From the sequence record OR352956.1: a stretch of 64,000 bases of DNA; one strand, given 5' to 3'. This stretch comes from Escherichia phage AV126. The notes under the pieces were generated by a model. It made no database searches. It was not told the origin of the DNA and worked only from the letters and a program-made list of their open reading frames with translations. Numbering within the stretch: the stretch's first letter is position 1; each line of letters opens with the position of its first letter. The translations under genes were made by a program, and so were the position numbers. This document shows, one piece after another, positions 23,414 through 54,745 of the stretch.

Positions 23414-23448
23414 GAAAAGGCACCCACTTGGGTGCCTTTGTTTTATTC
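23414..23448. terminator. bidirectional terminator at the convergence of plus and minus gene blocks
   Basis: AAAGGCACCCACTTGGGTGCCTTT hairpin with T-tracts on both strands. Confidence 0.6.
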
Positions 23449-23715
23449 TTCGTTAGATTGCGTTTCAGATGCGTTAAATTCGGTTTCAGTACAACTTGCT
23501 AGGTAACTTATATTTTGCATCACTACAACTACAGGTGTTTGAAGTTTATCTTCTAGCCCCGCAGCCACTTGAGCCAAGGCATTATCAATATTTGATTTCC
23601 TAACACCTGTTCCATGTCCTGTTGCCAAGTAAAGATTACCTTCCCCTTTTTGTGTAGCATTAGCAAAGTAGTAAACGTAATGTGCAAGGTAGTAATCACG
23701 GATTTCTTCAGTCAT
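23443..23715 (-). CDS. hypothetical protein (90 aa)
   Basis: ORF at end of minus-strand block. Confidence 0.45.
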   Translation of the reverse strand: MTEEIRDYYLAHYVYYFANATQKGEGNLYLATGHGTGVRKSNIDNALAQVAAGLEDKLQTPVVVVMQNISYLASCTETEFNASETQSNEE

Positions 23716-23758
23716 TTTATTCTCCTGATAAGAAAGGGGCCGAAGCCCCTTGAGTGGT

Positions 23759-24559
23759 TTATTTGTTTAAATGGTCTTCAACCATTTTGATAAAGCCTTC
23801 ATCACTGAAGACTGTTCCTGCTTTCTCTCGGTAGACAAGCACTCCACGTTCTTCGTAGAGAGTTTGTTCTACAAAATTCAAACCTGGGTTAACTACTACC
23901 ATCTTAACCCCAATATTCAGGGCAGGGAAGAGTTCCCAGTTGAAGTTGATTACTTGGTTAGAGCAGCCTACAACGATAACCATATCTTGTGATGTTAGTT
24001 GATCCAGTTTGTGATACATGTCTGTGTAGAGTGGTGCATTCTCACCAAAAAACACCACATTAGGCTTCACATATTTGTAATCGTCTACATCAATAGCTGC
24101 GTAACCCACATCTTTGATAATTTTGTTATCAACAACAACTTCTGGCAAGAAGCCATGAACGTGCAATATTTCTTCTCTATCGATTCCAGCGCGTTCTAAT
24201 AGATCGTCAACGTTAGTAGTAATGTTAATAATCCTTTCTGCACCGTATTTTTCGAACCATTCTCCAATCTGAAGATGTGCTGGATTCGGGTCAACTTTCT
24301 CTAATTCCACGCGACGTTTATTGTAGAAGTCGTGAGTTTTACGGTAGAGGTTATATCCTTCCACATCTAAGCCACCCATAGCATCAGGAATACCCTGTTC
24401 TTGCTGATAACCGTCACGGAAGTTGAAAATGTCACAGACTTCTGTTAAATCGTATTCATCCCATAATGCCTTTCCAGAATCTGTTTCTGTGCGAAATGTT
24501 TGGATTCCGCTGTCAGCACTTAGTCCCGCACCACTAATAAAATATACACGTCTTGGCAT
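23759..24559 (-). CDS. Sir2-like NAD-binding protein (no zinc-ribbon cysteines)
   Basis: GAGLSADSGI Rossmann motif, sirtuin-like NITTNVDDLLERAG, HG and VVFFGE motifs; no CxxC pairs. Confidence 0.55.
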   Translation of the reverse strand: MPRRVYFISGAGLSADSGIQTFRTETDSGKALWDEYDLTEVCDIFNFRDGYQQEQGIPDAMGGLDVEGYNLYRKTHDFYNKRRVELEKVDPNPAHLQIGEWFEKYGAERIINITTNVDDLLERAGIDREEILHVHGFLPEVVVDNKIIKDVGYAAIDVDDYKYVKPNVVFFGENAPLYTDMYHKLDQLTSQDMVIVVGCSNQVINFNWELFPALNIGVKMVVVNPGLNFVEQTLYEERGVLVYREKAGTVFSDEGFIKMVEDHLNK

Positions 24560-25032
24560 TATTCGTCCTCCTCAAATGGATCATAAGAATCATATTCGTA
24601 AGTATCATCTTCTGAAAATTCTACTTCGAAATAAATATCAAACTCTGCAAACAGACGTAGGATGTTAGACATGCTATAATAATTATCGTAGGCAGATTCA
24701 GCTTCATAGTAAACATAAAGCAAATGGTTAGCCTTATCATCTTCCAAATATTTCCCGTCTGCATACGCATAGTCTGCATATGCTTTACCTGCATCTTCTA
24801 CAAGAGAACGATCAAGCAGAGTAGGAAATGGTTTCTCTTTTTCTTTTAGTTTGCTCACCAACCAATGTGCAATATCATTCCATTCTGCATCCATACCACT
24901 AAAGCAACTTGCTTCTTCTCCAAAAGAAGCTTCTCCTAAATCGCCACTAATACGAACAACATTAGATGAATTATAGCCACACGTTTCACAATCAGAGTAA
25001 CTATTATGCACATTGACATTTACTTGAAACAT
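24559..25032 (-). CDS. hypothetical acidic protein (157 aa)
   Basis: start overlaps upstream stop. Confidence 0.5.
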   Translation of the reverse strand: MFQVNVNVHNSYSDCETCGYNSSNVVRISGDLGEASFGEEASCFSGMDAEWNDIAHWLVSKLKEKEKPFPTLLDRSLVEDAGKAYADYAYADGKYLEDDKANHLLYVYYEAESAYDNYYSMSNILRLFAEFDIYFEVEFSEDDTYEYDSYDPFEEDE

Positions 25033-25090
25033 ATTCCCTCCTATAAAAGAAAAGCCCCCTGAAACAGGAGGCTTTGTTCAGATGTTGGCA

Positions 25091-25744
25091 CTATACCAGA
25101 CTTTGTAGGTATTTGTCAAGGGCTTCTTGATCACCTTGGCAAACATAGCAACGGAAGTCTTGAGCCGAAGGTTGTTTATTTTCATCCCAATCCCAATAAA
25201 CGTTACCTTTATAACGTGAACCAGGGAACTCAAAAGAGGCTGTATGTGTAATGTACCCTGGGCCACCAGTGAAATCACAGAATGAAAATTGAGGGTATGC
25301 CGCCTTTACTGCCTCAATAAACCAAGCTTTACGATCTAAGGCTTCATTGATGCTATATGCATGTCTCTCCATTTCTTCCCAAGTTTTCCAGACGCTTCTC
25401 TCATCAGGAGAGAAGACAAGCCATTCTGGAAGGTAGAGAGTGTCATAGTAATCATCATATTCGATCTCGGATGCGCACGAAGCTGACTCCTCCAACTTTG
25501 AGTAGTCAAAAGCGGAATATACCCACCAACCATCTTCCAGCAAGGCTTTGATAGGGACAAAACCTTTATCTGCATATTGATCAAATTGTTTGACACGGTG
25601 GCTTGTGCAGTCTTCAAACTCACATTCTAAACGATATGCACCTTTTCGACGAGCCTCAAGACCGTGTGTACTGAAAATAACAACACTTCCTTCACCATCA
25701 TTACGATCTACTTGATAAGCAACTACTGGTTTTGAATTTGACAT
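25091..25744 (-). CDS. hypothetical protein (217 aa)
   Basis: coupled to the MTase-like gene. Confidence 0.5.
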   Translation of the reverse strand: MSNSKPVVAYQVDRNDGEGSVVIFSTHGLEARRKGAYRLECEFEDCTSHRVKQFDQYADKGFVPIKALLEDGWWVYSAFDYSKLEESASCASEIEYDDYYDTLYLPEWLVFSPDERSVWKTWEEMERHAYSINEALDRKAWFIEAVKAAYPQFSFCDFTGGPGYITHTASFEFPGSRYKGNVYWDWDENKQPSAQDFRCYVCQGDQEALDKYLQSLV

Positions 25745-26427
25745 TATTTCTCCTTATCTAGAAGATTGTTAGACAAAAACACTGCACGAGCAAAACCACG
25801 TGCGGTTAGTGATCTAAGTTGTTTTGTTTTTGCACTGGCTCCGCCTAAGCTTTTCCAACCCCAGAAGCAGCCTATATGATCTACTGGTTTCTTCACTGGT
25901 TGAACAAAACCATTGCCGTGCCAAATACAAGTTTTCTTTGTATACCCATCACGGGTAGGCATTTTAGGATGAAAGCTTCCTTCCTCTTCAAACAAATACC
26001 CACCATACTCATAAGGATCAAAGTAAAAATCGGGTTTACGCCATAAGGTTGAAAGTTTACCTACTGGGTTTTCAATCATCCAAGGAACATTATATTTGTT
26101 ACCCAAAGCTTCCACTACACGAATATTAGCTAAAGCTTCGTCTAATTCCTCTGTGCTGCGTTCGTGTTTGCTACCACTACCTGCTAACATAGTGCAAGGT
26201 GGAAATCCAAAAATAATATCGGGTTTAGGTATTCCATGATCTTCAGGGTTGAATGTAGAATCTATCCAAGCATTCACATAGGTTATGTTTGGGTGTTCCA
26301 TCCTAACCTCGTATTTACCGTGGTCCCCTTCATCAGCGTTTACACAAAAACACTTGTGACCTGCTTCGGCATAACGTAACACCATGATCCCAGATCCGTC
26401 AAACATAGACAAAACTGTTTTACTCAT
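25744..26427 (-). CDS. DNA cytosine-5 methyltransferase-like protein (divergent, short)
   Basis: motif I-like FDGSGI, motif IV-like GFPPCT (PCQ position), motif VI-like ENPVG; start trimmed to ATG at 26427 with GGAGGG SD. Confidence 0.5.
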   Translation of the reverse strand: MSKTVLSMFDGSGIMVLRYAEAGHKCFCVNADEGDHGKYEVRMEHPNITYVNAWIDSTFNPEDHGIPKPDIIFGFPPCTMLAGSGSKHERSTEELDEALANIRVVEALGNKYNVPWMIENPVGKLSTLWRKPDFYFDPYEYGGYLFEEEGSFHPKMPTRDGYTKKTCIWHGNGFVQPVKKPVDHIGCFWGWKSLGGASAKTKQLRSLTARGFARAVFLSNNLLDKEK

Positions 26428-26833
26428 TACCCCTCCATTCAAGACAAGCCATAACTTTACGCCAATCACTTTCTGTAAGAAAAATCTCGTTTGCTTTCTT
26501 CCACAAATCTAGATCGTGAAGGGTTGGAATACGATATGTTAGTTCACAGAATCTATGTTCTTCTTCTGTAATATAACCAAAATGCAAAGCCACATCGTGA
26601 AACCAACACCAACCATGCATCTCTCGAACAACATGATCATGTTGAGACATTGTTTTATGACGTAAACCTAACCAACAAGGAACAGATACTTTAGTAGTCT
26701 TTAATCTGTGATCAACAGTATTAGAGTATTCAATAATAGCTATCAATTTCAATCGTGCTTTTTCTAAATCCTCATGCGGCACTTTGAAATAACTTTCTGA
26801 AAGATATCCACACATATTAATAACCTCCTTCAA
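26420..26833 (-). CDS. hypothetical protein (137 aa)
   Basis: coupled within operon. Confidence 0.5.
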   Translation of the reverse strand: MKEVINMCGYLSESYFKVPHEDLEKARLKLIAIIEYSNTVDHRLKTTKVSVPCWLGLRHKTMSQHDHVVREMHGWCWFHDVALHFGYITEEEHRFCELTYRIPTLHDLDLWKKANEIFLTESDWRKVMACLEWRGNE

Positions 26834-27758
26834 AAGGCTTAACTACATGTTGATTAGCTTTAAAACGTTCAACATAGTCGTTTTCACCCATGTTTTCATA
26901 TAGCTTAGTAACAACATAAAAGTTCTCCCAAGCATATTCCCTAAACCAACCACTAGTGATAGATGTGCAAACTTTAGATAAAGCCATCATAAAACTTTGC
27001 TTAGGGGTTGGACCTCCGATCTCTTCACCGAAAGGAATTTGTGAACGTTCCAAAGCCAAAACACACGCTTCTTCATAAACACCTAACAGGCGCACATGTT
27101 TTGGTTGAGCAAAAAACTTTTCTTTGCTGGTCATAACTTCACTTCCATCTTTCATATAAGATTTATATGCTGGAGCATCCATTACTGCGATTGCTTCATG
27201 AATAGAGTCATGATCATAAACATACGGAACCTCATCACCTTTAAAGAAGTCTTTACTTCTCACGTTTAAGTTTGGATGAGAGTAAGTATATGTTTCTTTC
27301 TCACGCAACTCATAAATACTCTTAAGATTTTCTGGGATCTTTGCGCCTAGTGATCGCATGAAATGAATATCTTTCATAGTTTTAAAGAAGTAAGGACTAT
27401 CCTTTTTAAAACGATGACTCATTTTAAGAAGGTAGAGCACATCTAAAGGAGCAACAACGTGTCCAGCGTAAGTTCGACGAATATCATCACAGTCTTCACA
27501 ATAACTAATCAAAGCTTCTGTGCTATTTCCTTGAGAAGCAATATCGTATTCCAAATGTGCACCCGCTATCATTTTGACATGGCCCTTGTTCCCTTTACGC
27601 TCTACAAGTTCAACAAACTCATCTTGAGAGAACATTTTTGATAATTCTTCCCACTCTTGTTCTGTACAGAGATAATCTAAATCTACACAAGGGCGATACA
27701 AGTCTTTTCCCATGTCCATAGCATGAATTTGTAATGCACGGCTACCAATTAACACCAT
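26817..27758 (-). CDS. hypothetical protein, possible Pol-beta-fold nucleotidyltransferase
   Basis: N-terminal IGSRAL ... DLDYL resembles the GS-x(n)-DxD nucleotidyltransferase signature; AGAGGAGAA SD. Confidence 0.35.
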   Translation of the reverse strand: MVLIGSRALQIHAMDMGKDLYRPCVDLDYLCTEQEWEELSKMFSQDEFVELVERKGNKGHVKMIAGAHLEYDIASQGNSTEALISYCEDCDDIRRTYAGHVVAPLDVLYLLKMSHRFKKDSPYFFKTMKDIHFMRSLGAKIPENLKSIYELREKETYTYSHPNLNVRSKDFFKGDEVPYVYDHDSIHEAIAVMDAPAYKSYMKDGSEVMTSKEKFFAQPKHVRLLGVYEEACVLALERSQIPFGEEIGGPTPKQSFMMALSKVCTSITSGWFREYAWENFYVVTKLYENMGENDYVERFKANQHVVKPFEGGY

Positions 27759-27788
27759 AATATTTCTCCTCTATTGGTTGATAGGTTA

Positions 27789-27817
27789 AGTTTATCAAGC
27801 TTCCAGATTTCTGTCAA
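27789..27817 (-). promoter_or_regulatory. sigma70-like promoter (TTGACA - 17 nt - TAAACT) for the 27758..25091 operon
   Basis: on minus strand: terminator hairpin, then TTGACAGAAATCTGGAAGCTTGATAAACT, then SD and ATG. Confidence 0.55.
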
Positions 27818-27848
27818 TAAAAAACCCGCCGAAGCGGGTTATTATTTA

Positions 27849-28121
27849 CTAACACATTGAGGAAGAAGAGATCCAAACACCTCTTGTGGTTAAACCATTT
27901 TCATCCAACTCTACACCATAATCTTCACAAATGAAATCAATATAGTGATCTGCGGCTGGCGTTCCTGTAGGGTAATAAGTTTCTCCGTTGCCGTAGTCAC
28001 CTATCCAAGCTTGTTCCTGAAACTGTTCACAAAGTTCTTCGATTTCCTTACGAAACTTTCTTTGTGCTTGTTCCATCTCTTTAACTTTCTTTTTTATCAG
28101 CAGTTCGCCTTCAGACTCCAC
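27849..28121 (-). CDS. small acidic protein, C-terminal W-x-SSS-x-C family (copy 1)
   Basis: ends GVWISSSSMC. Confidence 0.5.
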   Translation of the reverse strand: MESEGELLIKKKVKEMEQAQRKFRKEIEELCEQFQEQAWIGDYGNGETYYPTGTPAADHYIDFICEDYGVELDENGLTTRGVWISSSSMC

Positions 28122-28130
28122 AATCTCTCC

Positions 28131-28391
28131 TTAACAGCTACTACTGTGCCAAACGCCTTGAGAATTAACGACGAAACCATCATCACCTTCACCATAACAA
28201 GAAGAGGATTGCCAATCTTCAAAACAGATTGCGTTATCTTCTAAACTAAGACCAAAACCAGCATCTTCAGCTTCTTTTGTAAGTTCGTCCACTAAAGCCA
28301 TAATAGCTTGGGCTTTTTCAGTTAATTCTTCAACATTACGATCACTCATTAGTATTTCTCCTCCGGTTGGAAAACTGAACGACAAGCCCAC
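28131..28391 (-). CDS. small acidic protein, C-terminal W-x-SSS-C family (copy 2)
   Basis: ends QGVWHSSSC. Confidence 0.5.
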   Translation of the reverse strand: MGLSFSFPTGGEILMSDRNVEELTEKAQAIMALVDELTKEAEDAGFGLSLEDNAICFEDWQSSSCYGEGDDGFVVNSQGVWHSSSC

Positions 28392-28663
28392 ATACTAGCT
28401 TCTTTTAAATGTTTAATAGCACAACGGATTTGATCAATACGCTCGTATGCAACATCTAATTCTTTTTCTGTGCCGTCAAAAGACCCATGATATGCTTCAC
28501 AATACTCTTCCTCTAAAGCTTTGAAGATTAAACCTAAACGCTCTTCTGCATCTTTAATAGCGTTAACCTTGCCAATCTTATCGTCGGTATGCGCCTTATA
28601 ACCTTTGATATCTTCGATTCCCACTTTACCTCCTATTAACAACTTAAAGAAGATGGATGCCAA
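28349..28663 (-). CDS. hypothetical protein (start uncertain)
   Basis: ORF overlaps neighbour by 43 nt. Confidence 0.4.
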   Translation of the reverse strand: MASIFFKLLIGGKVGIEDIKGYKAHTDDKIGKVNAIKDAEERLGLIFKALEEEYCEAYHGSFDGTEKELDVAYERIDQIRCAIKHLKEASMWACRSVFQPEEKY

Positions 28664-28833
28664 TTTGTCCCAGTATTCTCATTTTCATCTTCTGGATCAT
28701 AATAACCACCCATCCCATATTCAGGGGAGAAATGGAAACCTTCTCCAGTCTCGTCTGCTAACTGCTCTGCTTCCGCTAAAGCATCATAAGCTGCTTTTAC
28801 GGCTTCTTCTACTGTTTTAAACTTGGTCGTCAT
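28636..28833 (-). CDS. small acidic protein, C-terminal W-x-SS-x-C family (copy 3)
   Basis: ends TNWHPSSLSC. Confidence 0.5.
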   Translation of the reverse strand: MTTKFKTVEEAVKAAYDALAEAEQLADETGEGFHFSPEYGMGGYYDPEDENENTGTNWHPSSLSC

Positions 28834-29107: not shown

Positions 29108-29598
29108 AAAACCTCCTCAATTTTGTAGTTTGACTCCATCTCCAACACATTTCCACGAACGTCTCTCCGAAGAAAGGCATAAGCTTTATTAGGTATTGTA
29201 GACTCATATTTAACCATATCTGGCACAGCAAAAGATACTACTACTCCTTCTGGGCTTCTGTCAAGAGCCTTATTAATATTTCTAAGGATATCGTTAGCCA
29301 AGATTTCTGCCAATTCTCCAAGAACAGTTTCGGTTATATCTTTATACCCCATTAAATATTTGTTAATATCTTTCATCTCTGCATTGTTCAGAGTATAGTC
29401 TAAAGGATAGAAATTCAAAGCGGAGTCACTTTTATGTGTCCACATGAAATGTACCCGATCCGAGCAGAATCGTAACCCTCTACGAAGAATGTCTTCTACA
29501 ACAGGGAGAATTTCTTTTGTCACATCATTAACCATGTTGTAATCTAAGATTTCTGCCAAGTTTGTTCTTTGTTCACCACGTTTACGTTTAGGAATCAC
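29086..29598 (-). CDS. hypothetical protein (170 aa)
   Basis: ORF in operon. Confidence 0.5.
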   Translation of the reverse strand: MIPKRKRGEQRTNLAEILDYNMVNDVTKEILPVVEDILRRGLRFCSDRVHFMWTHKSDSALNFYPLDYTLNNAEMKDINKYLMGYKDITETVLGELAEILANDILRNINKALDRSPEGVVVSFAVPDMVKYESTIPNKAYAFLRRDVRGNVLEMESNYKIEEVLWQSSDQ

Positions 29599-30169
29599 TT
29601 GTTATTGCCCTCATTACCAAAGGTCGTAGAAAATCATAAATCTCTTGTTTTGTTTTCCCACGAATGTTTAAACAAGGAACATTATTTGCTTTAGCTATCT
29701 TCCAAGCCGTAGCTGTTCCGCCTTTTGCATCTCCGTGTTTATCAGTATCGGCACAAGCCAACAAGAAACATGATGGAGCAGGATTCTCCAAATCTTTACC
29801 TAACACCTGATGCACATTACGTTGGTGCAATTTTCTAGCGCCCTGCTTAAGCTTTTCATAAGCTGGGTGAACATCTTTGATCCATTGCACAGAGATAGCA
29901 TAGTTCATTGTATCTGGTTTTGCAAGAACAATAACATCACCTGGAATCTGATTACCTTTGAAATTTTCCCAAGGTACATAAATCTCCTTGTTAGTAGGAT
30001 TTTCAGACTCTTGGACACCTGTTTCAAAAGCAGAATCACTACCCTCTGCCTTCCCAGACCTTAATTTAAACCCAAGGTTTGAAAGCCATTTCCCTATGCC
30101 TACCATCAAAGCCCACTCTTCTTCAGATATGTCTCTACTTCCAACTCCCGTATAGAACAGTTCTGCCAT
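29588..30169 (-). CDS. DprA/SLOG-like Rossmann-fold protein (tentative)
   Basis: GVGSRD and SGKAEGSDSAFETG motifs resemble the DprA/Smf nucleotide-binding core; start trimmed to internal ATG. Confidence 0.35.
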   Translation of the reverse strand: MAELFYTGVGSRDISEEEWALMVGIGKWLSNLGFKLRSGKAEGSDSAFETGVQESENPTNKEIYVPWENFKGNQIPGDVIVLAKPDTMNYAISVQWIKDVHPAYEKLKQGARKLHQRNVHQVLGKDLENPAPSCFLLACADTDKHGDAKGGTATAWKIAKANNVPCLNIRGKTKQEIYDFLRPLVMRAITSDS

Positions 30170-30176
30170 AATCACC

Positions 30177-30485
30177 TCAACAAGTAATTTCAAAAGGTGT
30201 ATAGGGTTCCGTATTTCTCATGATCCAAGGACTGCTAGGATTGCTCGGATCATAAGGACCAAAAGGTTTTATGGTAGGTTGTGTCTCTTTCTTCTGAATC
30301 TCTTCAAAAATACGACGAAGTTCAGAATATTCTTGATCCACCATAAGATTCGGTGCATCTGATTCTACAGCTTGCAGGTTATCTTCCTTAAAAATAATCT
30401 CTCGAACAAGATTAACATCTTCTGTTTCTAAGATAACTTCTTTACGGATATTACCTACACTTTGAATAATTGTAATCTTATACAT
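30177..30485 (-). CDS. hypothetical protein (102 aa)
   Basis: ORF in operon. Confidence 0.5.
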   Translation of the reverse strand: MYKITIIQSVGNIRKEVILETEDVNLVREIIFKEDNLQAVESDAPNLMVDQEYSELRRIFEEIQKKETQPTIKPFGPYDPSNPSSPWIMRNTEPYTPFEITC

Positions 30486-31228
30486 TAATCCTCCTCAAGA
30501 GTTGAATAAAATTGAAGACCACCGTCCATATCGAAATAAGCAAATGTTAAGTTATTATTGAACACAGATCCAGTATCCATATAAACACGATTCGCATTGA
30601 TAATAGGTGTTTTTACATAAGAGTGTCCATGAAACACATAGTCCACACCCATCACAACAGGAAGTTTCATTCCCTCTTTAGCACAGTCCACCATATCTCT
30701 GTCCCACATAAGTGCTTCAGCAAAACGGTTTTCCTGTGTTTTTGTCATCTTCAAAGTGTATTCTGGAATATCTGTTACAGGGAGATATTCCAAAGAAGAT
30801 GGATACCCACCATGAATAAACGCAAGTTTCATGCCTCTGTAGTTAACAATGAGAACAACAGGTAAATCTTCTGTCATCATTGCTAAGGCTGTAGCTCCTT
30901 CTTCACCACATTCTTCAAGGACTGTATATCCTCCATTTTGATACCAACACTCGAAGTAGCTACGATCTCCTTCCAGCATACCTTTAATCATCATGTCTTC
31001 ATGATTTCCACGAATAGCATAGCGGTTGTGTTTACGAGTAAATTCTAAAACACAACGAAAGTTTTGCTTTCCACGGTCAGTAAGATCTCCTAAAGATACA
31101 ACTACATCTGTATCTCGGATACCTAACTTTGCCTTTCCTTTTTCATACAAATTATAACAACCGTGTAGATCTCCAATTATAAAAAGATCTTGATCGCTTT
31201 TAACAGTAATTTCTCTATGTATGATCAC
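30485..31228 (-). CDS. serine/threonine protein phosphatase (PPP/calcineurin-like family)
   Basis: GDLHG, GDLTDRG and GNHE metallophosphatase motifs in canonical order. Confidence 0.75.
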   Translation of the reverse strand: MIIHREITVKSDQDLFIIGDLHGCYNLYEKGKAKLGIRDTDVVVSLGDLTDRGKQNFRCVLEFTRKHNRYAIRGNHEDMMIKGMLEGDRSYFECWYQNGGYTVLEECGEEGATALAMMTEDLPVVLIVNYRGMKLAFIHGGYPSSLEYLPVTDIPEYTLKMTKTQENRFAEALMWDRDMVDCAKEGMKLPVVMGVDYVFHGHSYVKTPIINANRVYMDTGSVFNNNLTFAYFDMDGGLQFYSTLEED

Positions 31229-32844: not shown

Positions 32845-33354
32845 TTAAACAAAATAAAATGGTTGAGAGAGGCCCAAACGATTCTTTGGGTCGTATACAT
32901 ACCAAGCGTATGCTGTCTTATCTGTTCCACCTGCAACAAACGAAGGCCGTTCTGAAAGAACTATAAGGTTTGTCGGTGGATTCTTTTGATGGAACTCTCG
33001 TCGTTTCTTTGACTCCAAGAAGCCCAACCGAAGAAGATAAATACAAACATCCGCCTCTTTTAAGCTCTTTTCCAAGAACTCCATTGCTAACTTAAATGGA
33101 GGGTTTGTGATTATAATGTCGGGACGATTTTCCCACTCGTGACTAAAATAATCCTTACCTTCTTCAAGTTCACAATATTCTGAACCTTCAGGAAAATGGC
33201 GATAAATCGCTTCAGCTTCACCTCTGCAAGGTTCTGCAAAAACCCAACCTTCTTCCTTTAGATTTTTGAAATCTATAACACTAAACAAACTGTTGATTGC
33301 TTTTTGCGGTGTCGGATAATAATCGCTCGTTGGGCGATCATAATCTAATGCCAT
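32845..33354 (-). CDS. DNA N6-adenine methyltransferase (small phage Dam-like)
   Basis: YYPTP motif and IIITNPPF (DPPY-type) catalytic motif. Confidence 0.6.
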   Translation of the reverse strand: MALDYDRPTSDYYPTPQKAINSLFSVIDFKNLKEEGWVFAEPCRGEAEAIYRHFPEGSEYCELEEGKDYFSHEWENRPDIIITNPPFKLAMEFLEKSLKEADVCIYLLRLGFLESKKRREFHQKNPPTNLIVLSERPSFVAGGTDKTAYAWYVYDPKNRLGLSQPFYFV

Positions 33355-36504: not shown

Positions 36505-36765
36505 TTACTCCGCAATTTGAGCCATGAGATCACGCAGTTCGGTAAAACCGCCTACGTATGTTACCTCCCCGTTCACTTCAGACAGAATTTGTGGAAATGT
36601 GCGTGGAGGAACTCCGGTAAGATCAACAACTGTTTTAGTCATTGATTCTAAATCGTAGTCTTGGTCAAGACTTAAATATTCAAACTGTTTATTGCGCATG
36701 GTTAATAGTTGTTTTGACATTTCACAAAATTGACAGTTAGGTTTACCAAAAATTACAAATTCCAT
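36505..36765 (-). CDS. glutaredoxin/NrdH-like redoxin
   Basis: CQFC active-site motif in an 86 aa thioredoxin-fold-sized protein next to RNR genes. Confidence 0.7.
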   Translation of the reverse strand: MEFVIFGKPNCQFCEMSKQLLTMRNKQFEYLSLDQDYDLESMTKTVVDLTGVPPRTFPQILSEVNGEVTYVGGFTELRDLMAQIAE

Positions 36766-37607
36766 TACCTCTCCTTATTAAGTAATACTGCTAAAGACTG
36801 TTCAATACCTTTATTTAAATCTGATTTTGTAAGATAGTGACTGGTTACTAGTTGTGACTTCACCGGACGTGCTGCTGGAGCATTATAGGTTGAAGCTGAT
36901 ACCGCCGATATCTTAACAGGTTCTGGCATCTGTGTCAAGATCTTTTCCGCAAACTCCGCCCAAGAAATAAGATGGCTTCCTGCAAAATGGTAAGTCTTAA
37001 CAGATCTTGACCAACCTGTTTTTAATACTTCAAAAATAGCTTCTGCTAAATCTGGGGCATATGTTGGACAAGAGAACTGATCAGCAACAATAATAAAATC
37101 ACGTTGTCCATCATTATAGCGAGACAACATGGTTTTTAGAAAGTTATTTCCAAATTCGCTATATACCGAGGCTGTTCGAATAATATATGCATTTGGGTTA
37201 ACTCCTCGCACCATTTTTTCACCAAGTTCTTTCGTATACCCATAATTGTTTATTGGGTTAGGTGTAGTATCTTCAAAAATAGGATGAGAATAATTAAAAA
37301 TATAGTCTGTAGAAATATGCACAAAATCAATTTTAAGTTTGCTGCACACTGCCGCAATATTTGCAGGTCCATACGCATTAACAGCCAAAGCAGTAGCAAA
37401 TTCATGTTCTGCTTTATCTACCGCCGTATAAGCGGCGCAATTAATAACACCATCTACATAATCTTCAACAATAGCGTTTCGCACAGCTTCAAAATTTGTA
37501 ATATCTACACGTTCTTTAGGATAAATTAAAGATACATTTGCAGGGGCAACTTTACGTAAAGCTTGTCCCAGTTGTCCATTACCACCCAATACCAAATATG
37601 TTAGCAT
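36765..37607 (-). CDS. rmlD: dTDP-4-dehydrorhamnose reductase
   Basis: N-terminal LVLGGNGQLGQAL Rossmann motif; size and position within rml cluster. Confidence 0.8.
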   Translation of the reverse strand: MLTYLVLGGNGQLGQALRKVAPANVSLIYPKERVDITNFEAVRNAIVEDYVDGVINCAAYTAVDKAEHEFATALAVNAYGPANIAAVCSKLKIDFVHISTDYIFNYSHPIFEDTTPNPINNYGYTKELGEKMVRGVNPNAYIIRTASVYSEFGNNFLKTMLSRYNDGQRDFIIVADQFSCPTYAPDLAEAIFEVLKTGWSRSVKTYHFAGSHLISWAEFAEKILTQMPEPVKISAVSASTYNAPAARPVKSQLVTSHYLTKSDLNKGIEQSLAVLLNKER

Positions 37608-38167
37608 ACACCCTCGCTACGTAACTGTTGAAAAGATTTAGCCATTGCATCTTTTGTTGATAGGATAGGTTTAAAACCTTCATCAAAAATCATATCGAAG
37701 CCCCAATCGATCCCTATATCAGGATCATCCCAACGTAAACTTTGTTCACTAGAAGAGTCGTATGGAGTTGTGCATTTGTATTCAAAGATAGCATCCATAC
37801 TCAAAACTATAAAACCATGTGCCAAACCAGGTGGAAGCCAAAACTGCGTATGGTGTCGTGCACGAAGAACAACACCGTCCCAAGCACCGTAAGTAGGACT
37901 ATCTTTACGTAAGTCTACAGCGAAATCCAATACTTCACCACTTACACAACGAACAAGCTTACCTTGCGGATTATTTGTTTGAAAGTGCATTCCTCGCAAA
38001 ACACCGAAGTTTGATTTAGACATGTTATCTTGAACGAAAGTTTGTCTACCAATAATATCTTCGTATTTTTGTTCATTATATGTTTCTAAAAAGAAACCAC
38101 GGTCATCTTTATAAACGTCTGGTTTGATAATTACCGCACCTTCAATTTTTGTCTTTTCTACTTTCAT
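37601..38167 (-). CDS. rmlC: dTDP-4-dehydrorhamnose 3,5-epimerase
   Basis: cupin-fold epimerase signature (DDRGFF..E, RGMHFQ); start trimmed to ATG at 38167, ATGA-coupled to rmlA. Confidence 0.8.
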
Positions 38168-39042
38168 TTTCTCTCCGCTAATTTGAGTAGGTATTGCCCG
38201 TACTCTGTTTTCTTCAGTGAGTTTCCATGATATACCAAAGTCTCTAAAGAAATCCACCCTTTTTTGAAAGCAATTTCTTCCAGGCACGCAATCTTCAACC
38301 CTTGACGGTTCTCAATAGTCTGCACGAATTGACCAGCTTCCATCAGACTGGCGTGTGTTCCTGTGTCAAGCCAAGTAAATCCTCGTCCGAGAACTTCCAC
38401 TTGTAACTTCCTGTCTTCGAGGTAGCTGCGATTGATATCTGTGATCTCCAGTTCTCCCCGCGCGGAAGGGGTTACTTCTAATGCACGTTCAACAACAGAG
38501 TTATCATAGAAATACAAACCTGTGACAGCATAATCTGATTTAGGATTTTCAGGTTTCTCTTCAATAGAAATAGCTTGACGATTACTCCCAAATTCAACCA
38601 CACCGAATCGTTCAGGATCTTTCACCAAATACCCGAAGATACAAGCTCCGCCACAAACATCTACCATCTCACTGGCGTTAATCAGTAGTTTACCAAAGCT
38701 TTGTCCGAAGAATAGGTTGTCACCTAAAATAAGAGCAACAGAGTCTTCTCCGATAAAATCTTTACCGATGATGAAAGCGTCCGCAAGACCTCGTGGCTCG
38801 GATTGGATTGCGTAAGTGAGTTTTATCCCAAACATAGACCCATCTCCGAGAAGATACTCAAAGTCTTCCTGATCGCCTGGTGTGGTGATGATTAAGATAT
38901 CCTTAATGTCAGCCAACATCAATACCGATAAAGGGTAGTAGATCATGGGTTTGTCATACACAGGGAGCAATTGCTTGCTCACACTGCGTGTTACCGGATG
39001 AAGGCGGGTTCCACTTCCTCCCGCCAAAATAATACCTTTCAT
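38164..39042 (-). CDS. rmlA: glucose-1-phosphate thymidylyltransferase
   Basis: [14 protein letters not shown] nucleotidyltransferase motif; start trimmed to ATG at 39042 with AAGGAGGG SD. Confidence 0.85.
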
Positions 39043-39050
39043 AGCCCTCC

Positions 39051-40043
39051 TTAAATCTTCCCACTCCACCATTGAGGGTTGTTTAAGTACCATTCAATCG
39101 TTGAGTAGAGATCTTGTTCAAATGTAGAGTTTGCACTCCAACCCAGTTCAGACTCTATTTTAGAAGGATTGATTTCATAACGCAAGTCATGTCCTTTACG
39201 ATCTTCAACAAAAGTTATCAAGTTGGAAGAAGGGTAGGTTCCTGCTTCTGGATGTACAGCATCCATGTAGTCACAAACCATATAGATGATCTCCATATTG
39301 GTTTTGGGATTACGTGTTCCAACATTATACGTTTGACCTGGTTCTCCACCTGTTGCCACTTGAAGAATAGCTCGCGCATGATCCTCAACAAAAAGCCAGT
39401 CTCGCACCTGATCGCCTTTACCATACACCGGAATCTCTTTATTCGTCAAGATACTTGTGATGATTTTTGGGATCAGCTTTTCTGGATGTTGATAAGGTCC
39501 AAAGTTATTGGAGCAGTTGGTTATCACAACAGGTAAACCGTAGGTACGGTACCAAGCTTTCACAAGATGGTCAGATGCTGCCTTAGACGCACTGTACGGG
39601 CTTGAAGGGGCATAAGCTGTCTCTTCGGTAAAGGGAACGCCAGAGTCTGCCATATCGCCGTACACTTCGTCTGTGGAGACGTGTACGAACATCTTCAGTT
39701 TATTTTTTGGGAGGAGCCTTGCAGCTTCCAATAAATTGTATGTGCCAATAATATTGGAGTCGATGAAAACTCGTGGATTCTTGATAGAATTATCCACATG
39801 ACTCTCTGCCGCTAAGTGAATGATGAAATCGGGATTGCACTCTACTACTAAACTTTTGACCTGGGTTTCGTTTGCCAAATCTGTTATGCTTAGTTTAACG
39901 TGAGTGATATCGCCTACATTCTCAATATCTGCTGCATAGCCCATCTTATCAACGACAAAAACTTCGTTATTGGGATCTTGACAAAGAGAGCGCACCACGG
40001 CACTCCCAATAAAACCAAGACCACCTGTTACCAGATAGCGCAT
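39051..40043 (-). CDS. rmlB: dTDP-glucose 4,6-dehydratase
   Basis: [13 protein letters not shown] Rossmann motif, YSASKAASD catalytic YxxxK context. Confidence 0.85.
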
Positions 40044-52102: not shown

Positions 52103-52828
52103 TTACTTGTTAATAATACCTGCAATGTTAGGTTTAATGAAACCTGACCACTTCATGATCTTACCTTTATCATCAAAGAACACATACACTTTCTGTTTTT
52201 CATTATAAACAGCATGAACACCAGTGTATGCCCCTTCTGGACGATTGGCATTTCGTTCTTCAATTGCAGCGCATTCTTGTGCAATGGCTGAATCAATATC
52301 TGAAGTTTTCCAAGTTTTCAGCAACTGTTGTTTAGTTGGATACTTGGAATCATTACTTTTCAATACCTCTTTAATAACTTTCTTTTCTGGATATTTTGAA
52401 CGGATTAGAGTGTCACGAGACATACGCATAATACCAGCAGCCATTAGCGCCATTTGAACTGGCTCTGTAAATGTTTGTTCCAAAGCATCAAAATCAGTAT
52501 ACACAGTTGGAGTAAAAACATCGCCTACAGCATAGTCCAAGAAATTCATCGTATGTTCTTCACCAAAGAACATGTAAGTCAGATAACTGGATACTACAAA
52601 AATATCCGCTGCTGCATCCAAGAGTTCTACATGATCGTTTACTTTCGCGGCTGTTTCATACTCTTTAAGCTCTTCACGAACGAACCCGATTTGGGACATA
52701 AATAACTCTTGAGTGAATTCAGGTTGTTCACCACCTCGTGCTTTGGCATTCCAATCAATTACGTGCTTTGCTGCATTTTTGAAAAATTCAGTATCGAATT
52801 TAATATCTTTAAAAAAATTCTCGATCAT
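52103..52828 (-). CDS. hypothetical protein, possible MazG-like NTP pyrophosphohydrolase
   Basis: EELKEYE ... ELLDAAADI resembles the MazG ExxE...E..D motif. Confidence 0.35.
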   Translation of the reverse strand: MIENFFKDIKFDTEFFKNAAKHVIDWNAKARGGEQPEFTQELFMSQIGFVREELKEYETAAKVNDHVELLDAAADIFVVSSYLTYMFFGEEHTMNFLDYAVGDVFTPTVYTDFDALEQTFTEPVQMALMAAGIMRMSRDTLIRSKYPEKKVIKEVLKSNDSKYPTKQQLLKTWKTSDIDSAIAQECAAIEERNANRPEGAYTGVHAVYNEKQKVYVFFDDKGKIMKWSGFIKPNIAGIINK

Positions 52829-52837
52829 TATAACTCC

Positions 52838-53098
52838 TTATTTAAAATAGCTTTCTAGAAAGTTGCTAATATTTACTACAGTCTCACCCATGTAAATTCC
52901 TGCGAAACCGAAAACAAGCATACGTGGAATATTGAAATACCATTTATCCGCCGGAAAAGATGCCAGAATTACAATAGCAATTGCTATCAACATCATAAGA
53001 ATTGTTGCTAAAATTATCATAAAAATGCCTCCAGGTATTTTGCACAATAATAAGCTAAGAAACAAGAAACTACCGCATACCCAACTCCAGACATACAT
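52838..53098 (-). CDS. hypothetical membrane protein (86 aa)
   Basis: two to three predicted TM helices. Confidence 0.45.
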   Translation of the reverse strand: MYVWSWVCGSFLFLSLLLCKIPGGIFMIILATILMMLIAIAIVILASFPADKWYFNIPRMLVFGFAGIYMGETVVNISNFLESYFK

Positions 53099-53211
53099 GA
53101 ATCAATCGCAACACATATGGTTCTTTTCTTTGAATTCTTAGGAAAGTTTTCCGAAGCATTCATACAATAAAAAGAAAGCACACTGAAAACGATTAAAATG
53201 GCTAAGAACAT
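53017..53211 (-). CDS. hypothetical membrane protein (64 aa, overlaps neighbour out of frame)
   Basis: hydrophobic ORF; 80 nt overlap makes one of the two starts doubtful. Confidence 0.35.
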   Translation of the reverse strand: MFLAILIVFSVLSFYCMNASENFPKNSKKRTICVAIDSCMSGVGYAVVSCFLAYYCAKYLEAFL

Positions 53212-53220
53212 TTTTCCTCC

Positions 53221-54348
53221 TTACTCTGCTGGTTCCCAAGTGCCTGGGATCATTTCTCGAATACGAACACCAACAGGTTTTGTTGGAATACCTTCATCTG
53301 AAAATTCTTCATACTCTATTTCAACGAACTGATTAATCAAGGTAGAAGCATTCTCTGCTTTACGATAATTGATAGTCTCATGAGCATCTTTACGCATTAA
53401 GAATTCGACTACTTTACCATTTTCCATCTCACCTGTCAACACTCCATCGCCATTTTTATCGCTTTTTGAATTTGTTACTTTAACTTCAAGGGTATGGCGA
53501 GGCTTACGTTTAATAACATCATAAGAACGTTTATCAAATTCGTAAACTCCGTGAGCATTACGATATACTACACCTTCAGCTTTCTCAAGTAAAGCTTTTT
53601 CATAGAAAGCATTAAACTGTTCTTGGTTTTCAATATACTCTGTATGAACTACACAAATAAGCTCGTCAAGACCATAATCTTCAACTACGGCCTTAAGAGC
53701 AGCAAGAGCATCAACACGTTTTTCAAACGGTAGACCTGGAACTGGAATATCGTATACGTAATAATTCAGCAAAGGTGTATTTGCATTATGCTTCTTCCAA
53801 GCACTGTTAATTTGTTGCAGACTAAGGACGCCTAACCCAGCAAACACTTCACCATCAAGAGGATGACCAACAACTTCACTAATAAAGTTTGGAATACCTT
53901 TCCAATGAGGTGGCAGGTTATACACTTCCCCAGCTTTTGATAAACACTCCCCTTTCATGTTAATCATAGAACGTAACCCGTTCAGTTTGTATTGTGCATA
54001 ACCAGGGAACACAACCTTTTCAGGATAATCTTTATAATCCTGGCATTTCATTGGTGTGGAAGGAACATGGTTTTCAGCTTCTTCTTTTGTTTTATAATAG
54101 CCATTCTTTAACTGTTTTGTCCATTTGGCAAAAGCTTCAAGTTCAGCTTGTTCTTCCGGTGTTGTTTCATTGGAACGACCAATGTTTTTTGCTTCTGCTG
54201 TATAAGATTTTTCTGTGATTTTTCCACCTACCCTTCCATGAGCTACAGTAACAACTGCACCATCTGTATACACTGTCCACTGTTTAAGTTTTCCTTTTGA
54301 ATCTTTACCATACAGCGTTTGATTTGTTTGTTGCATTAGTCCTCCCAT
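53221..54348 (-). CDS. ATP-dependent DNA ligase-like nucleotidyltransferase
   Basis: motif I KLNGLR (Asn at the usual Asp position), motif III HPLDGEVF, motif IV EGVVYR, motif V DVIKRKP in canonical order. Confidence 0.6.
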   Translation of the reverse strand: MGGLMQQTNQTLYGKDSKGKLKQWTVYTDGAVVTVAHGRVGGKITEKSYTAEAKNIGRSNETTPEEQAELEAFAKWTKQLKNGYYKTKEEAENHVPSTPMKCQDYKDYPEKVVFPGYAQYKLNGLRSMINMKGECLSKAGEVYNLPPHWKGIPNFISEVVGHPLDGEVFAGLGVLSLQQINSAWKKHNANTPLLNYYVYDIPVPGLPFEKRVDALAALKAVVEDYGLDELICVVHTEYIENQEQFNAFYEKALLEKAEGVVYRNAHGVYEFDKRSYDVIKRKPRHTLEVKVTNSKSDKNGDGVLTGEMENGKVVEFLMRKDAHETINYRKAENASTLINQFVEIEYEEFSDEGIPTKPVGVRIREMIPGTWEPAE

Positions 54349-54557
54349 TTAAAAACTGAAATTTTCAATCTGTTACACACTTCATCCAAATCCGCGTCGA
54401 GTAACGTTGTAGATGTTGCCAACATATAATCAATGCTTGTGAAACCTTGCCCTTTGGCATAGTCAAGCATATCTTCATACATATCTTCAAGATCACCGTC
54501 ATCAAAAGTAGCTAGAAAATCCTCGTCCCCGCTACGAACATAAAATGCAGTACTCAT
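54336..54557 (-). CDS. hypothetical acidic protein (73 aa)
   Basis: coupled ORF. Confidence 0.45.
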   Translation of the reverse strand: MSTAFYVRSGDEDFLATFDDGDLEDMYEDMLDYAKGQGFTSIDYMLATSTTLLDADLDEVCNRLKISVFKWED

Positions 54558-54745
54558 TCATCTTCATCCCAAGATTCAAAAGCACAACAATCATCGGTTT
54601 CTATAATACCAACACGTCCGCAGGTATTGCAAGTGATTTTATCCCCGTAGAATAAATAATTTTTATCACCCTCTGTGTTTACAGTTATGTCATTACTACC
54701 ACAAGGGCAAGTCAGCCAACCAACAACAACGATATCTTTTTTCAT
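54554..54745 (-). CDS. zinc-ribbon mini-protein (63 aa)
   Basis: CPCG ... CNTCG Cys pairs. Confidence 0.5.
   Translation of the reverse strand: MKKDIVVVGWLTCPCGSNDITVNTEGDKNYLFYGDKITCNTCGRVGIIETDDCCAFESWDEDE

What the first reader, a model, noticed from the sequence alone, without database searches (positions are those of the whole stretch)
23443..27817. Self-contained operon with nucleotidyltransferase-like, C5-MTase-like and zinc-less Sir2-like genes
A minus-strand unit bounded by terminator hairpins has its own TTGACA-17-TAAACT promoter and encodes, in order: a 313 aa protein with a GS...DxD nucleotidyltransferase-like N-terminus; a 137 aa unknown; a short cytosine-5 MTase-like protein with FDGSGI / GFPPCT / ENPVG motifs (Thr at the PCQ glutamine position) and no obvious target-recognition domain; a 217 aa unknown; an acidic 157 aa protein; and a Sir2-fold protein lacking the zinc-ribbon cysteines of deacetylase sirtuins, as in NAD-consuming defence Sir2 domains. 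The combination suggests a DNA/nucleotide modification or NAD-directed anti-defence module, not housekeeping genes.
Basis: partly seen in the sequence, partly recalled or inferred. Interest (0 to 1): 0.75.

Follow-up and report, generated by a model that had tools for sequence, protein, structure and literature searches.

The report
Phage accessory genes, not one operon
The stretch is part of the accessory-gene region of a known E. coli phage: the three enzyme-like genes are real but are inherited independently, and the nucleotidyltransferase's real conserved partners are small acidic proteins just outside the reported coordinates that all end in the same cysteine-terminated tail.

Summary
The window is a Phapecoctavirus, 99.2% identical over this stretch to Escherichia phage nieznany, where these genes are already annotated. 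The fold calls hold. The 313-aa protein is a Pol-beta nucleotidyltransferase closest to MenT/AbiEii toxins. The 227-aa protein is a compact C5-methyltransferase fold with an almost absent target-recognition region. The 266-aa protein is a sirtuin without zinc cysteines.

It is not a self-contained operon. A terminator follows the 217-aa gene, and a second hairpin follows the Sir2 gene. It is also not a conserved module. The three enzyme families have different phage distributions and sit together only in Stephanstirmvirinae-like genomes.

The Sir2 belongs to the T5/rV5 viral sirtuin clade. It keeps all catalytic motifs and matches no defence-Sir2 profile. A published comparative-genomics study predicts an RNA-repair role for this clade.

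New here: the nucleotidyltransferase is consistently preceded by 1-4 tandem small acidic proteins ending in G-x-W-x-S-S-S-x-x-C. This holds in 70 of 80 loci, with none in 818 kb of control phage DNA. In the window these genes lie at 27849-28833, interleaved with an Acb2 sponge gene. Their function is unknown.

The parts
27849..28121 (-). Small acidic protein (90 aa) ending ...GVWISSSSMC.
   Evidence: phrog_899. Family census.
28131..28349 (-). Small acidic protein (72 aa from the annotated start) ending ...GVWHSSSC, with an internal DWQSSSC copy of the motif.
28349..28663 (-). Acb2/Tad1-hairpin protein, a homologue of T4 Vs.4 (the anti-CBASS cyclic-nucleotide sponge), interleaved with the small proteins.
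   Evidence: Pfam PF24729 at E=2.1e-16, 60.3 bits against a cut-off of 27. The public record annotates it as similar to vs.4.
28636..28833 (-). Small acidic protein (65 aa) ending ...NWHPSSLSC, with the YGMGGYY motif.
   Evidence: phrog_899, E=3.4e-13.
27823..27840 (.). Bidirectional hairpin terminator (AACCCGC-TTCG-GCGGGTT plus a T-run) between the small-protein genes and gene A.
27789..27817 (-). Promoter-like site TTGACA-17-TAAACT with a TG extension, upstream of gene A.
   Evidence: It is a consensus match only.
26817..27758 (-). Gene A (313 aa): a Pol-beta-fold nucleotidyltransferase (DUF7277, residues 1-87) joined to the conserved helical domain DUF7275 (residues 107-297). Its closest solved folds are the MenT1, MenT3 and MenT4 tRNA nucleotidyltransferase toxins.
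26420..26815 (-). Gene B (131 aa): unknown function, restricted to the closest relatives (1 of 80 NTase loci).
25744..26427 (-). Gene C (227 aa): a compact C5-cytosine methyltransferase fold with motifs FDGSG, FPPCT and ENPVGK. Only about 35 residues lie between motif VIII and motifs IX/X.
25091..25744 (-). Gene D (217 aa): unknown and acidic. Its start overlaps the stop of C (TAATG). It is mostly confined to Stephanstirmvirinae.
25051..25119 (-). Internal punctuation: promoter-like TTGACA-18-TATAGT (25119-25090), followed by an 11-bp-stem terminator with a T-run (25075-25051).
24559..25032 (-). Gene E (157 aa): very acidic (pI 4.05). Its stop overlaps the Sir2 start (TAATG). Function unknown.
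23759..24559 (-). Gene F (266 aa): a zinc-less sirtuin of the T5/rV5 viral clade. It keeps GAGLS, TTNVDD, HVHG (H135), FFGE and VNP, and carries a roughly 20-aa insertion specific to this lineage.
   Evidence: Literature: PMC9503650 and PMC5107563.
23736..23749 (-). Hairpin GGGGC-TTCG-GCCCC followed by TTTCTT, after the Sir2 gene. The related phage ASO2A annotates a terminator at this position.
23443..23715 (-). Gene G (90 aa): unknown function (phrog_15991).
23416..23439 (.). Bidirectional terminator where the plus-strand and minus-strand gene blocks converge.

Best explanation
The stretch is a piece of the early accessory region of a Phapecoctavirus. It is a mosaic of independently inherited accessory genes in three transcription sub-units (A-B-C-D, E-F, G), not one pathway.

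(1) Gene A is a MenT/AbiEii-like Pol-beta nucleotidyltransferase fused to DUF7275. Its conserved functional partners are not the downstream genes. They are the 1-4 tandem small acidic proteins just upstream, which all end in G-x-W-x-S-S-S-x-x-C. I infer that A either acts on that tail, for example by nucleotidylylating a serine hydroxyl, or is regulated by these proteins in the way a small antitoxin regulates MenT1.

(2) Gene C is a compact C5-methyltransferase that most likely methylates cytosine in DNA with little sequence selectivity, to blunt restriction.

(3) Gene F is an active-site-complete, zinc-less viral sirtuin that uses NAD+ for ADP-ribosyl transfer. That could be deacylation, or removal of RNA 2'-phosphate as proposed for this clade.

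Shown here: the folds, the motifs, the gene linkage and the distributions. Inferred: all substrates and activities.
For: Identity: 99.2% to phage nieznany, with the same genes annotated there.

Sub-units: internal terminators and gene-junction overlaps.

Independence of the genes:
- In 80 NTase loci, C, D and F occur in only 8-9, and 8 of those are phapecoctavirus-like.
- In 80 MTase loci, A, D and F occur in only 4-5.
- Numbers of phage records and hosts differ: A 734 records (T4-likes, Aeromonas, Acinetobacter, Pseudomonas, actinophages); C 1487 (largely 45-52 kb Klebsiella and E. coli phages); F 980 (T5-like, rV5-like, Vibrio).

Gene A:
- The model has pLDDT 89.
- G5, S6, D26, D28, E70, K112 and D130 are invariant.

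Linkage of A to the small proteins:
- 70 of 80 loci have at least one ORF ending W.[SA]S.{1,3}C within 2.5 kb upstream on the same strand.
- There are 152 hits in 1092 nearby reading-frame segments, against 8 in 9825 elsewhere in the same loci, and 0 in 818 kb of phage DNA without A.
- The link holds in 24 of 30 clades of A at 70% identity.
- Three reverse look-ups starting from small proteins each found a DUF7277+DUF7275 gene 20-900 bp downstream.
- The family has 555 representatives at 50% identity, and 137 of 147 inspected end exactly in Cys.

Gene C:
- F9, D10, G11, S12, G13, P76, C78, E119, N120, P121 and V122 are invariant.

Gene F:
- Pfam SIR2 at 74.5 bits.
- All motifs are conserved, and six phage members spanning T5, rV5, Mydo, Vibrio and Xanthomonas phages have no zinc cysteines.
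Against: A, C, D and F keep the same order in a second lineage at only about 50% protein identity (L009-L011, L019). A-B-C-D are translationally coupled. Some functional interplay within this phage lineage therefore cannot be excluded.

A divergent A homologue lies 2.1 kb from the Sir2 gene in a KVP40-like Vibrio phage. That is a second, independent case of A and F lying together.

No activity of any of these proteins has been measured. The C5-MTase match is below Pfam's gathering score (11.6 against 22 bits). No homology or structure ties the small proteins to any known antitoxin or substrate.
Confidence: 0.6

Rival explanations
1. RNA (tRNA) repair and protection toolkit. A restores or edits RNA 3' ends as a MenT-like tRNA nucleotidyltransferase. 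F removes 2'-phosphates with NAD+ in a KptA/Tpt1-like reaction. C methylates tRNA cytosine as DNMT2 does. Together they would counter host tRNA-targeting defences.
For: - The closest solved folds to A are tRNA 3'-end nucleotidyltransferases (PMC10435456).
- Iyer et al. 2022 predict RNA repair for the viral sirtuin clade that includes phage V5 and Mydo (PMC9503650). F is 49-55% identical to those proteins.
- A homologues lie near PNKP and a ligase in jumbo phages, and near Metallophos genes in several lineages.
- An A homologue lies 0.9 kb upstream of a tRNA cluster in Gordonia phage OneUp, and 2.1 kb from Sir2 in Vibrio phage XZ1.
- The window encodes cREC, Metallophos, MazG-like and ligase genes and 10 tRNAs.
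Against: - In this genome the cREC, Metallophos, MazG-like and ligase genes are 30 kb away from Sir2, and no RNA ligase homologue was found in the window.
- C is found mainly in about 50 kb T1-like phages that lack these partners, where it is annotated as a DNA methylase.
- A, C and F do not co-occur outside two lineages.
- This reading does not explain the cysteine-terminated small proteins.
- The sirtuin RNA-repair role is itself an untested prediction; I found no experimental paper.
Confidence: 0.2
2. One reading: a single dedicated module for DNA or nucleotide modification, or an NAD-directed anti-defence module, in which the NTase, the MTase and the Sir2 act in one pathway.
For: - The genes are adjacent on one strand and bounded by terminators.
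- The order A-C-D-F is conserved across Stephanstirmvirinae-like genomes.
- Anti-defence context: Acb2 lies just upstream.
Against: - Internal terminators split the unit.
- The three families have separate phyletic distributions.
- The Sir2 has no similarity to defence NADase profiles and keeps the acyl-lysine/FGE architecture.
- No known hypermodification pathway uses this trio; this last point rests on my own knowledge and is not a test.
Confidence: 0.08
3. A and the small proteins form a phage-borne toxin-antitoxin-like pair. A is a MenT-like host-shutoff toxin that blocks host tRNA charging, and the small acidic proteins are MenA1-like stoichiometric inhibitors that time or restrain it. 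The conserved tail is only a binding element.
For: - MenA1 is a 68-aa helical protein encoded upstream of menT1 that blocks the active site (PMC10435456).
- The phage small proteins are 60-100 aa, begin with an amphipathic helix and lie upstream of A on the same strand.
Against: - Several tandem paralogues per enzyme (up to 4) is unusual for antitoxins.
- Conservation is concentrated in the last 8 residues and in a free C-terminal Cys, not in the helix.
- In the window a terminator and a promoter separate the small genes from A.
- There is no sequence similarity to MenA or AbiEi.
Confidence: 0.12

Closest known systems
MenT / AbiEii (DUF1814) nucleotidyltransferase toxins, e.g. M. tuberculosis MenT1 (PDB 8an4), MenT3/TglT, MenT4
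   Different: There is no sequence-profile match to DUF1814; Pfam files the protein as DUF7277+DUF7275. It is about 120 residues longer, with a large and very conserved extra helical domain that has no PDB match. It is encoded by lytic phages. The upstream partners are tandem acidic proteins with a W-x-S-S-S-x-x-C end and are unrelated to MenA or AbiEi. Activity is untested.
C5-cytosine DNA methyltransferases (Pfam PF00145; M.HhaI, M.HaeIII, DNMT3 catalytic domain)
   Same: The fold matches, and motifs I (FxGxG), IV (PC) and VI (ENV) are invariant, as is a C-terminal TPRGFA element resembling motifs IX/X.
   Different: It has only 227 residues against roughly 290-330 for those enzymes. About 35 residues stand where the target-recognition domain should be. 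Thr replaces Gln after the catalytic Cys. The match is below Pfam's gathering score. The target (DNA or RNA) and the specificity are unknown.
Viral sirtuin clade of phages T5 (cobB/T5.102), rV5 and Mydo, described by Iyer et al. 2022 (PMC9503650); also noted in KVP40-like Vibrio phages (PMC5107563)
   Same: It is 49-55% identical to the T5, rV5 and Mydo proteins. It shares the clade-specific motifs, lacks zinc cysteines and keeps the catalytic His and the NAD-binding motifs.
   Different: Here the gene is not next to the tRNA ligase, cREC, MazG and phosphoesterase genes that defined the predicted RNA-repair neighbourhood; homologues of cREC, the phosphoesterase, MazG and the DNA ligase lie 30 kb away, and no RNA (tRNA) ligase homologue was found in the window. 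It is translationally coupled to a very acidic 157-aa protein, and it carries a roughly 20-aa insertion.
Defence-associated Sir2 NADases (ThsA, DSR1/2, SIR2-HerA; Pfam SIR2_2)
   Same: The Rossmann-type Sir2 fold binds NAD+, and there is no zinc ribbon.
   Different: There is no PADLOC profile hit, and the SIR2_2 match is only E=0.038, below threshold. There is no sensor or partner domain. The protein is closer to the CobB, Sir2Af2 and SIRT5 deacylases.
Acb2 (T4 Vs.4) anti-CBASS sponge
   Same: The 28349-28663 gene matches the Acb2/Tad1 hairpin domain at E=2e-16.
   Different: It is relevant only as context, marking the neighbourhood as counter-defence.

Membership tests
Pol-beta superfamily nucleotidyltransferase, MenT/AbiEii-like | hG[GS] motif, [DE]x[DE] motif and a third catalytic carboxylate | tested here: met
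   G5, S6, D26, D28 and E70 are invariant in 31 homologues at 50-81% identity. Divergent actinophage and Vibrio phage members keep GS...DxD.
Pol-beta superfamily nucleotidyltransferase, MenT/AbiEii-like | Fold similarity to solved MenT structures | tested here: met
Pol-beta superfamily nucleotidyltransferase, MenT/AbiEii-like | Sequence-profile membership in DUF1814/AbiEii | tested here: not met
   Only DUF7277 and DUF7275 match, in all 31 members, at E up to 5. A profile search against PDB sequences found nothing.
Pol-beta superfamily nucleotidyltransferase, MenT/AbiEii-like | Transfer of nucleotides to tRNA 3' ends; toxicity neutralised by a cognate antitoxin | not testable with these tools
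   This needs enzyme and growth assays.
C5-cytosine methyltransferase (PF00145) | Motifs I (FxGxG), IV (PC, catalytic Cys) and VI (ENV) | tested here: met
   F9, D10, G11, S12, G13; F75, P76, C78, T79; and E119, N120, P121, V122 are invariant in 29 homologues.
C5-cytosine methyltransferase (PF00145) | Pfam gathering score | tested here: not met
   11.6 bits against a cut-off of 22, E=0.18, covering only residues 4-92. PADLOC type II MTase profiles match at E=1e-4, again only the N-terminal half.
C5-cytosine methyltransferase (PF00145) | Fold of the catalytic domain | tested here: met
C5-cytosine methyltransferase (PF00145) | Target-recognition domain between motifs VIII and IX | tested here: not met
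   Only about 35 residues separate YTKKTCIW from TKQLRSLT. Total length is 227 aa.
Sirtuin (PF02146) | Pfam SIR2 above threshold, with the NAD-binding and catalytic motifs (GAGxS, xxNxD, HG, FGE) | tested here: met
   74.5 bits against a cut-off of 24. The motifs align to CobB and Sir2Af2 and are conserved in six phage members.
Sirtuin (PF02146) | Four-cysteine zinc ribbon | tested here: not met
   The segment between HG and FGE has no Cys in any of six phage homologues.
Housekeeping CobB (NCBIfam equivalogs) | Score above the curated cut-off | tested here: not met
   Best score is 94.5 bits against a cut-off of 243.
Defence Sir2 NADases (PADLOC; Pfam SIR2_2) | Profile match to a defence Sir2 family | tested here: not met
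   No PADLOC family matches at E up to 1. SIR2_2 scores 14.5 bits against a cut-off of 24.5.
Viral RNA-repair sirtuin neighbourhood (Iyer et al. 2022) | Sequence membership in the clade typified by the phage V5 and Mydo sirtuins | tested here: met
   49% identity to the typing phage 5 (V5) protein, 55% to Mydo and 51-53% to T5.
Viral RNA-repair sirtuin neighbourhood (Iyer et al. 2022) | Adjacency to tRNA ligase, cREC, MazG, kinase or calcineurin-like phosphoesterase genes | tested here: not met
   Homologues of cREC (56151-56495), Metallophos (55090-55635), a MazG-like gene (52103-52828) and a ligase (53221-54348) lie 28-32 kb away. No RNA ligase homologue was found in the window.
Single self-contained operon | No internal transcription stops; genes co-inherited | tested here: not met
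   Internal terminators are at 25075-25051 and 23749-23736. The genes are co-inherited only within one phage lineage.

The most novel reading that the evidence does not exclude
The NTase-DUF7275 enzyme covalently modifies the invariant C-terminal W-x-S-S-S-x-x-C tail of the tandem small acidic proteins. The modification could be O-nucleotidylylation of a serine. It might be followed by elimination and attack by the terminal cysteine, which would give a lanthionine- or AviCys-like ring; Ser at -3 from a C-terminal Cys is the spacing used for AviCys in epidermin, a point from my own knowledge. This would be a previously unrecognised, widespread system of enzyme-matured small effector proteins in large lytic phages (T4-like, jumbo, phapecoctavirus, Pseudomonas phages), probably used in counter-defence.
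Probability: 0.12. Interest if true: 0.85.

Novelty: new variant of a known kind. Interest (0 to 1): 0.45.

Why it matters
As submitted, the finding is mostly ordinary. The genes are already annotated in public phage genomes, and the sirtuin clade has been discussed in print.

Two things are still worth knowing. First, three widespread phage enzyme families remain without any measured activity: 734, 1487 and 980 phage records respectively. Here they sit in a tractable E. coli K-12 phage.

Second, the analysis exposes a statistically very strong and apparently undescribed gene linkage. A MenT-like nucleotidyltransferase is linked to arrays of small acidic proteins with an invariant cysteine-terminated tail, next to a known anti-CBASS sponge. 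That gives a concrete, testable entry point: co-expression, intact-mass spectrometry and tRNA labelling. It could reveal either a new protein modification or a new way for phages to control a tRNA-modifying enzyme.

Tried and rejected
- RlaP (RNA-ligase-associated Pol-beta NTase) membership for A. No Pfam match was found.
- Sequence searches of A, D, E and the small-protein profile against PDB found nothing meaningful. For the small proteins, only designed helical bundles matched the N-terminal helix.
- Pfam, NCBIfam and PADLOC gave nothing for B, D, E and G.
- A conserved partner for Sir2 across phage families was sought. The neighbours differ in T5, rV5, Mydo, Vibrio and Xanthomonas phages, and E is not conserved outside close relatives.
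- D as an obligatory partner of the MTase: D is present in only 5 of 80 MTase loci.
- A special stop codon after the terminal Cys, as a sign of recoding: the counts are TAA 128, TGA 20, TAG 4, which is unremarkable.
- Rfam scan of 22-31 kb gave no hit.
- Literature searches for DUF7275/DUF7277, the PHROG ids, RB69ORF134c, a phage-encoded sirtuin and experimental tests of the sirtuin RNA-repair idea returned nothing beyond PMC9503650 and PMC5107563.
- The afdb50 fold library was unavailable.

Full report
**Source and observation.** The 4.5 kb around the finding is 99.2% identical to Escherichia phage nieznany (Stephanstirmvirinae, Phapecoctavirus) and 91-98% identical to many relatives, including phAPEC8. 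The public records already annotate the same ORFs: several hypothetical proteins, a 'Dcm/DNA methyltransferase' and a 'Sir2 (NAD-dependent deacetylase)'.

I call them:
- A: 26817-27758
- B: 26420-26815
- C: 25744-26427
- D: 25091-25744
- E: 24559-25032
- F: 23759-24559
- G: 23443-23715

Promoter-like matches in the region are no more frequent than in shuffled sequence (16 against 14.7), so they carry little weight.

**The unit is not self-contained.** An 11-bp-stem terminator with a T-run lies between D and E at 25075-25051. An 11/12 promoter match lies immediately before it. A GGGGC-TTCG-GCCCC hairpin with a T-run follows F. The independent annotation of phage ASO2A calls terminators at the same three places. 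Start/stop overlaps couple A-B-C-D and couple E-F, but nothing couples D to E or F to G. The best reading is three sub-units.

**Gene A.** Pfam files A as DUF7277 (residues 1-87) plus DUF7275 (residues 107-297), and PHROGs as phrog_2141. Both are of unknown function. The family has more than 2200 relatives in the 90%-clustered protein collection and occurs in 734 phage records. These include RB69 ORF134c and other T4-likes, Aeromonas, Acinetobacter and Pseudomonas phages, jumbo phages and divergent actinophage members.

A is not a sequence-level member of DUF1814. The last roughly 140 residues have no structural match.

**The real partners of A.** I fetched 80 diverse viral loci holding A homologues and clustered all neighbouring ORFs. 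Only one other family is widely shared. It consists of small proteins just upstream on the same strand.

Every member ends in G-x-W-x-S-S-S-x-x-C, with the cysteine as the last residue. A regex census gave these counts:
- 70 of 80 loci have 1-4 such ORFs within 2.5 kb upstream.
- 152 of 1092 nearby stop-to-stop segments match, against 8 of 9825 elsewhere in the same loci.
- There are 0 matches in 818 kb of phage loci that lack A.

The link holds in 24 of 30 clades of A at 70% identity, and in 16 of 21 at 60%. Starting instead from three small proteins, the encoding contigs each carry a DUF7277+DUF7275 gene 20-900 bp downstream.

The 147 unique proteins have a median length of 87 aa and a mean net charge of -8.9. 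They have Ser at -3 in 94% of cases and often carry a YG(M/S)GGTYYP motif. A profile search of 1.84 billion representatives finds 555 clusters; of the 147 inspected, 137 end exactly in Cys. They have no Pfam family, only phrog_899 and phrog_4882 of unknown function, no relative with a solved structure, and I found no literature on them.

In the window they are at 27849-28121, 28131-28349 and 28636-28833. They are interleaved with a clear Acb2/Vs.4 anti-CBASS sponge homologue at 28349-28663 (PF24729, E 2e-16).

The family is in 1487 phage records. Most are 45-52 kb Klebsiella and E. coli phages where it is annotated as a C5 methylase. It is also in rV5-like and some T4-like phages. The BASEL study notes that Drexlerviridae abundantly encode C5-MTases, without a simple link to restriction resistance (PMC8594841). 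In 80 loci holding C, the genes D, A and F appear in only 4-5.

**Gene F.** Pfam SIR2 scores 74.5 bits. The best PDB relatives are Sir2Af2, CobB and SIRT5. NCBIfam CobB models match far below their cut-offs. No PADLOC defence profile matches.

The GAGLS, TTNVDD, HVHG, FFGE and VNP motifs are kept. The zinc-ribbon segment has no cysteine in F or in the T5, rV5, Mydo, Vibrio and Xanthomonas phage homologues. F is 49-55% identical to the T5 (cobB), rV5 and Mydo proteins.

This is the viral sirtuin clade that Iyer et al. 2022 singled out and predicted to act in RNA repair. They proposed a KptA-like removal of 2'-phosphate, on the basis of neighbouring tRNA ligase, cREC, MazG, kinase and phosphoesterase genes (PMC9503650). 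Skliros et al. 2016 had already remarked on phage Sir2/CobB genes (PMC5107563).

In this window the homologues of those neighbours lie 28-32 kb away: cREC at 56151-56495, Metallophos at 55090-55635, a MazG-like gene at 52103-52828 and a ligase at 53221-54348. No RNA ligase homologue was found. I found no experimental test of the prediction.

**Do the genes form a module?** In the 80 A loci, C, D and F occur in 8-9. Eight of these are phapecoctavirus-like or a sister lineage at about 50% identity that keeps the order A-C-D-F. One further locus has A and C in another arrangement. That pattern fits vertical inheritance of a syntenic accessory region better than functional coupling.

Two observations keep a weaker link alive. 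A divergent A homologue lies 2.1 kb from the Sir2 gene in a KVP40-like Vibrio phage. A homologues also often sit near PNKP, ligase, Metallophos or tRNA genes. I therefore keep an RNA-repair toolkit reading for A and F as the main rival, at about 0.2.

**Mechanism.** I commit to the mosaic reading at 0.6. C most likely methylates DNA cytosines with low specificity. F carries out NAD+-dependent ADP-ribosyl transfer, either deacylation or RNA 2'-phosphate removal. A works on or with the cysteine-terminated small proteins.

For A, the options are enzyme-substrate or inhibitor-enzyme. In the first, A would nucleotidylylate a tail serine; the MntA-HepT pair is a precedent for NTase-mediated protein AMPylation, a point from my own knowledge. 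In the second, the small proteins would inhibit A as MenA1 inhibits MenT1. Several paralogues per enzyme, and conservation confined to the last eight residues, favour the substrate reading. No computation available to me could decide between them.

B, D, E and G remain without any lead.

**Verdict.** The submitted 'operon' is ordinary and already annotated. The NTase and small-protein linkage is the part that deserves follow-up.

Noticed in passing
window 27849-28833 (-): Three tandem small acidic genes end in W-x-S-S-S-x-x-C. They belong to a family of at least 555 clusters that almost always lies just upstream of DUF7277+DUF7275 genes in T4-like, jumbo, Pseudomonas and phapecoctavirus phages. 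There is no Pfam family and I found no literature.
   Followed up: yes
window 28349-28663 (-): An Acb2/Vs.4-type cyclic-nucleotide sponge homologue (PF24729, E=2e-16) sits inside the small-protein array. The RefSeq record annotates it only as a hypothetical protein.
   Followed up: partly
window 25051-25119 (-): A near-consensus promoter (TTGACA-18-TGGTATAGT) lies immediately upstream of a strong terminator hairpin rather than downstream of it. Transcripts from it would begin about 8 nt before the hairpin. This could be a 5' stabiliser, an attenuator or a chance match.
   Followed up: no
window 52103-56495 (-): A cluster of a MazG-like pyrophosphatase, an ATP-dependent ligase, a calcineurin-like phosphoesterase and a cREC (cyclic-phosphate processing receiver) gene. 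These are the partners of the sirtuin in rV5/Mydo-type 'RNA repair' neighbourhoods, but here the sirtuin is 30 kb away and no RNA ligase homologue was found.
   Followed up: partly
window 36765-40043 (-): A complete dTDP-L-rhamnose pathway (RmlD, RmlC, RmlA, RmlB; Pfam E-values 1e-66 to 1e-80) is encoded by the phage. Its target (DNA, virion or host surface) is unknown to me.
   Followed up: no
window 60249-62173 (+): A cluster of 10 tRNA genes (Met x2, Arg, Ser, Asn, Thr, Gly, Gln, Pro, Ile).
   Followed up: no
window 29588-30193 (-) and 30485-31228 (-): A gene that RefSeq annotates as DprA-like (no Pfam hit in my scan) and a calcineurin-like phosphoesterase (PF00149, E=3e-13) lie just upstream of the small-protein array. 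Metallophos genes recur near A homologues in other phage lineages.
   Followed up: partly
window 32845-33354 (-): A 169-aa gene that RefSeq annotates as 'DNA methyltransferase' has no Pfam match at E<=0.001. The annotation may be unsupported.
   Followed up: no
L185 (Vibrio phage XZ1) 3543-4600 and 6739-7500; L183 (Gordonia phage OneUp) 2429-4058; L184 (Streptomyces phage BillNye) 2854-4084: Divergent A homologues in Vibrio phages and actinophages are flanked by a different small protein family with a G-x-G-x-x-Y-Y motif and a beta-rich C-terminus. This family may be distantly related to the cysteine-terminated family. In XZ1 the Sir2 gene is 2.1 kb downstream, and in OneUp a tRNA cluster is 0.9 kb downstream.
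   Followed up: partly
window 24355-24415 (-), Sir2 residues ~49-68: The phapecoctavirus Sir2 carries a roughly 20-residue insertion (GYQQEQGIPDAMGGLDVEGY) that is absent from the T5, rV5, Mydo, Vibrio and Xanthomonas phage homologues.
   Followed up: no
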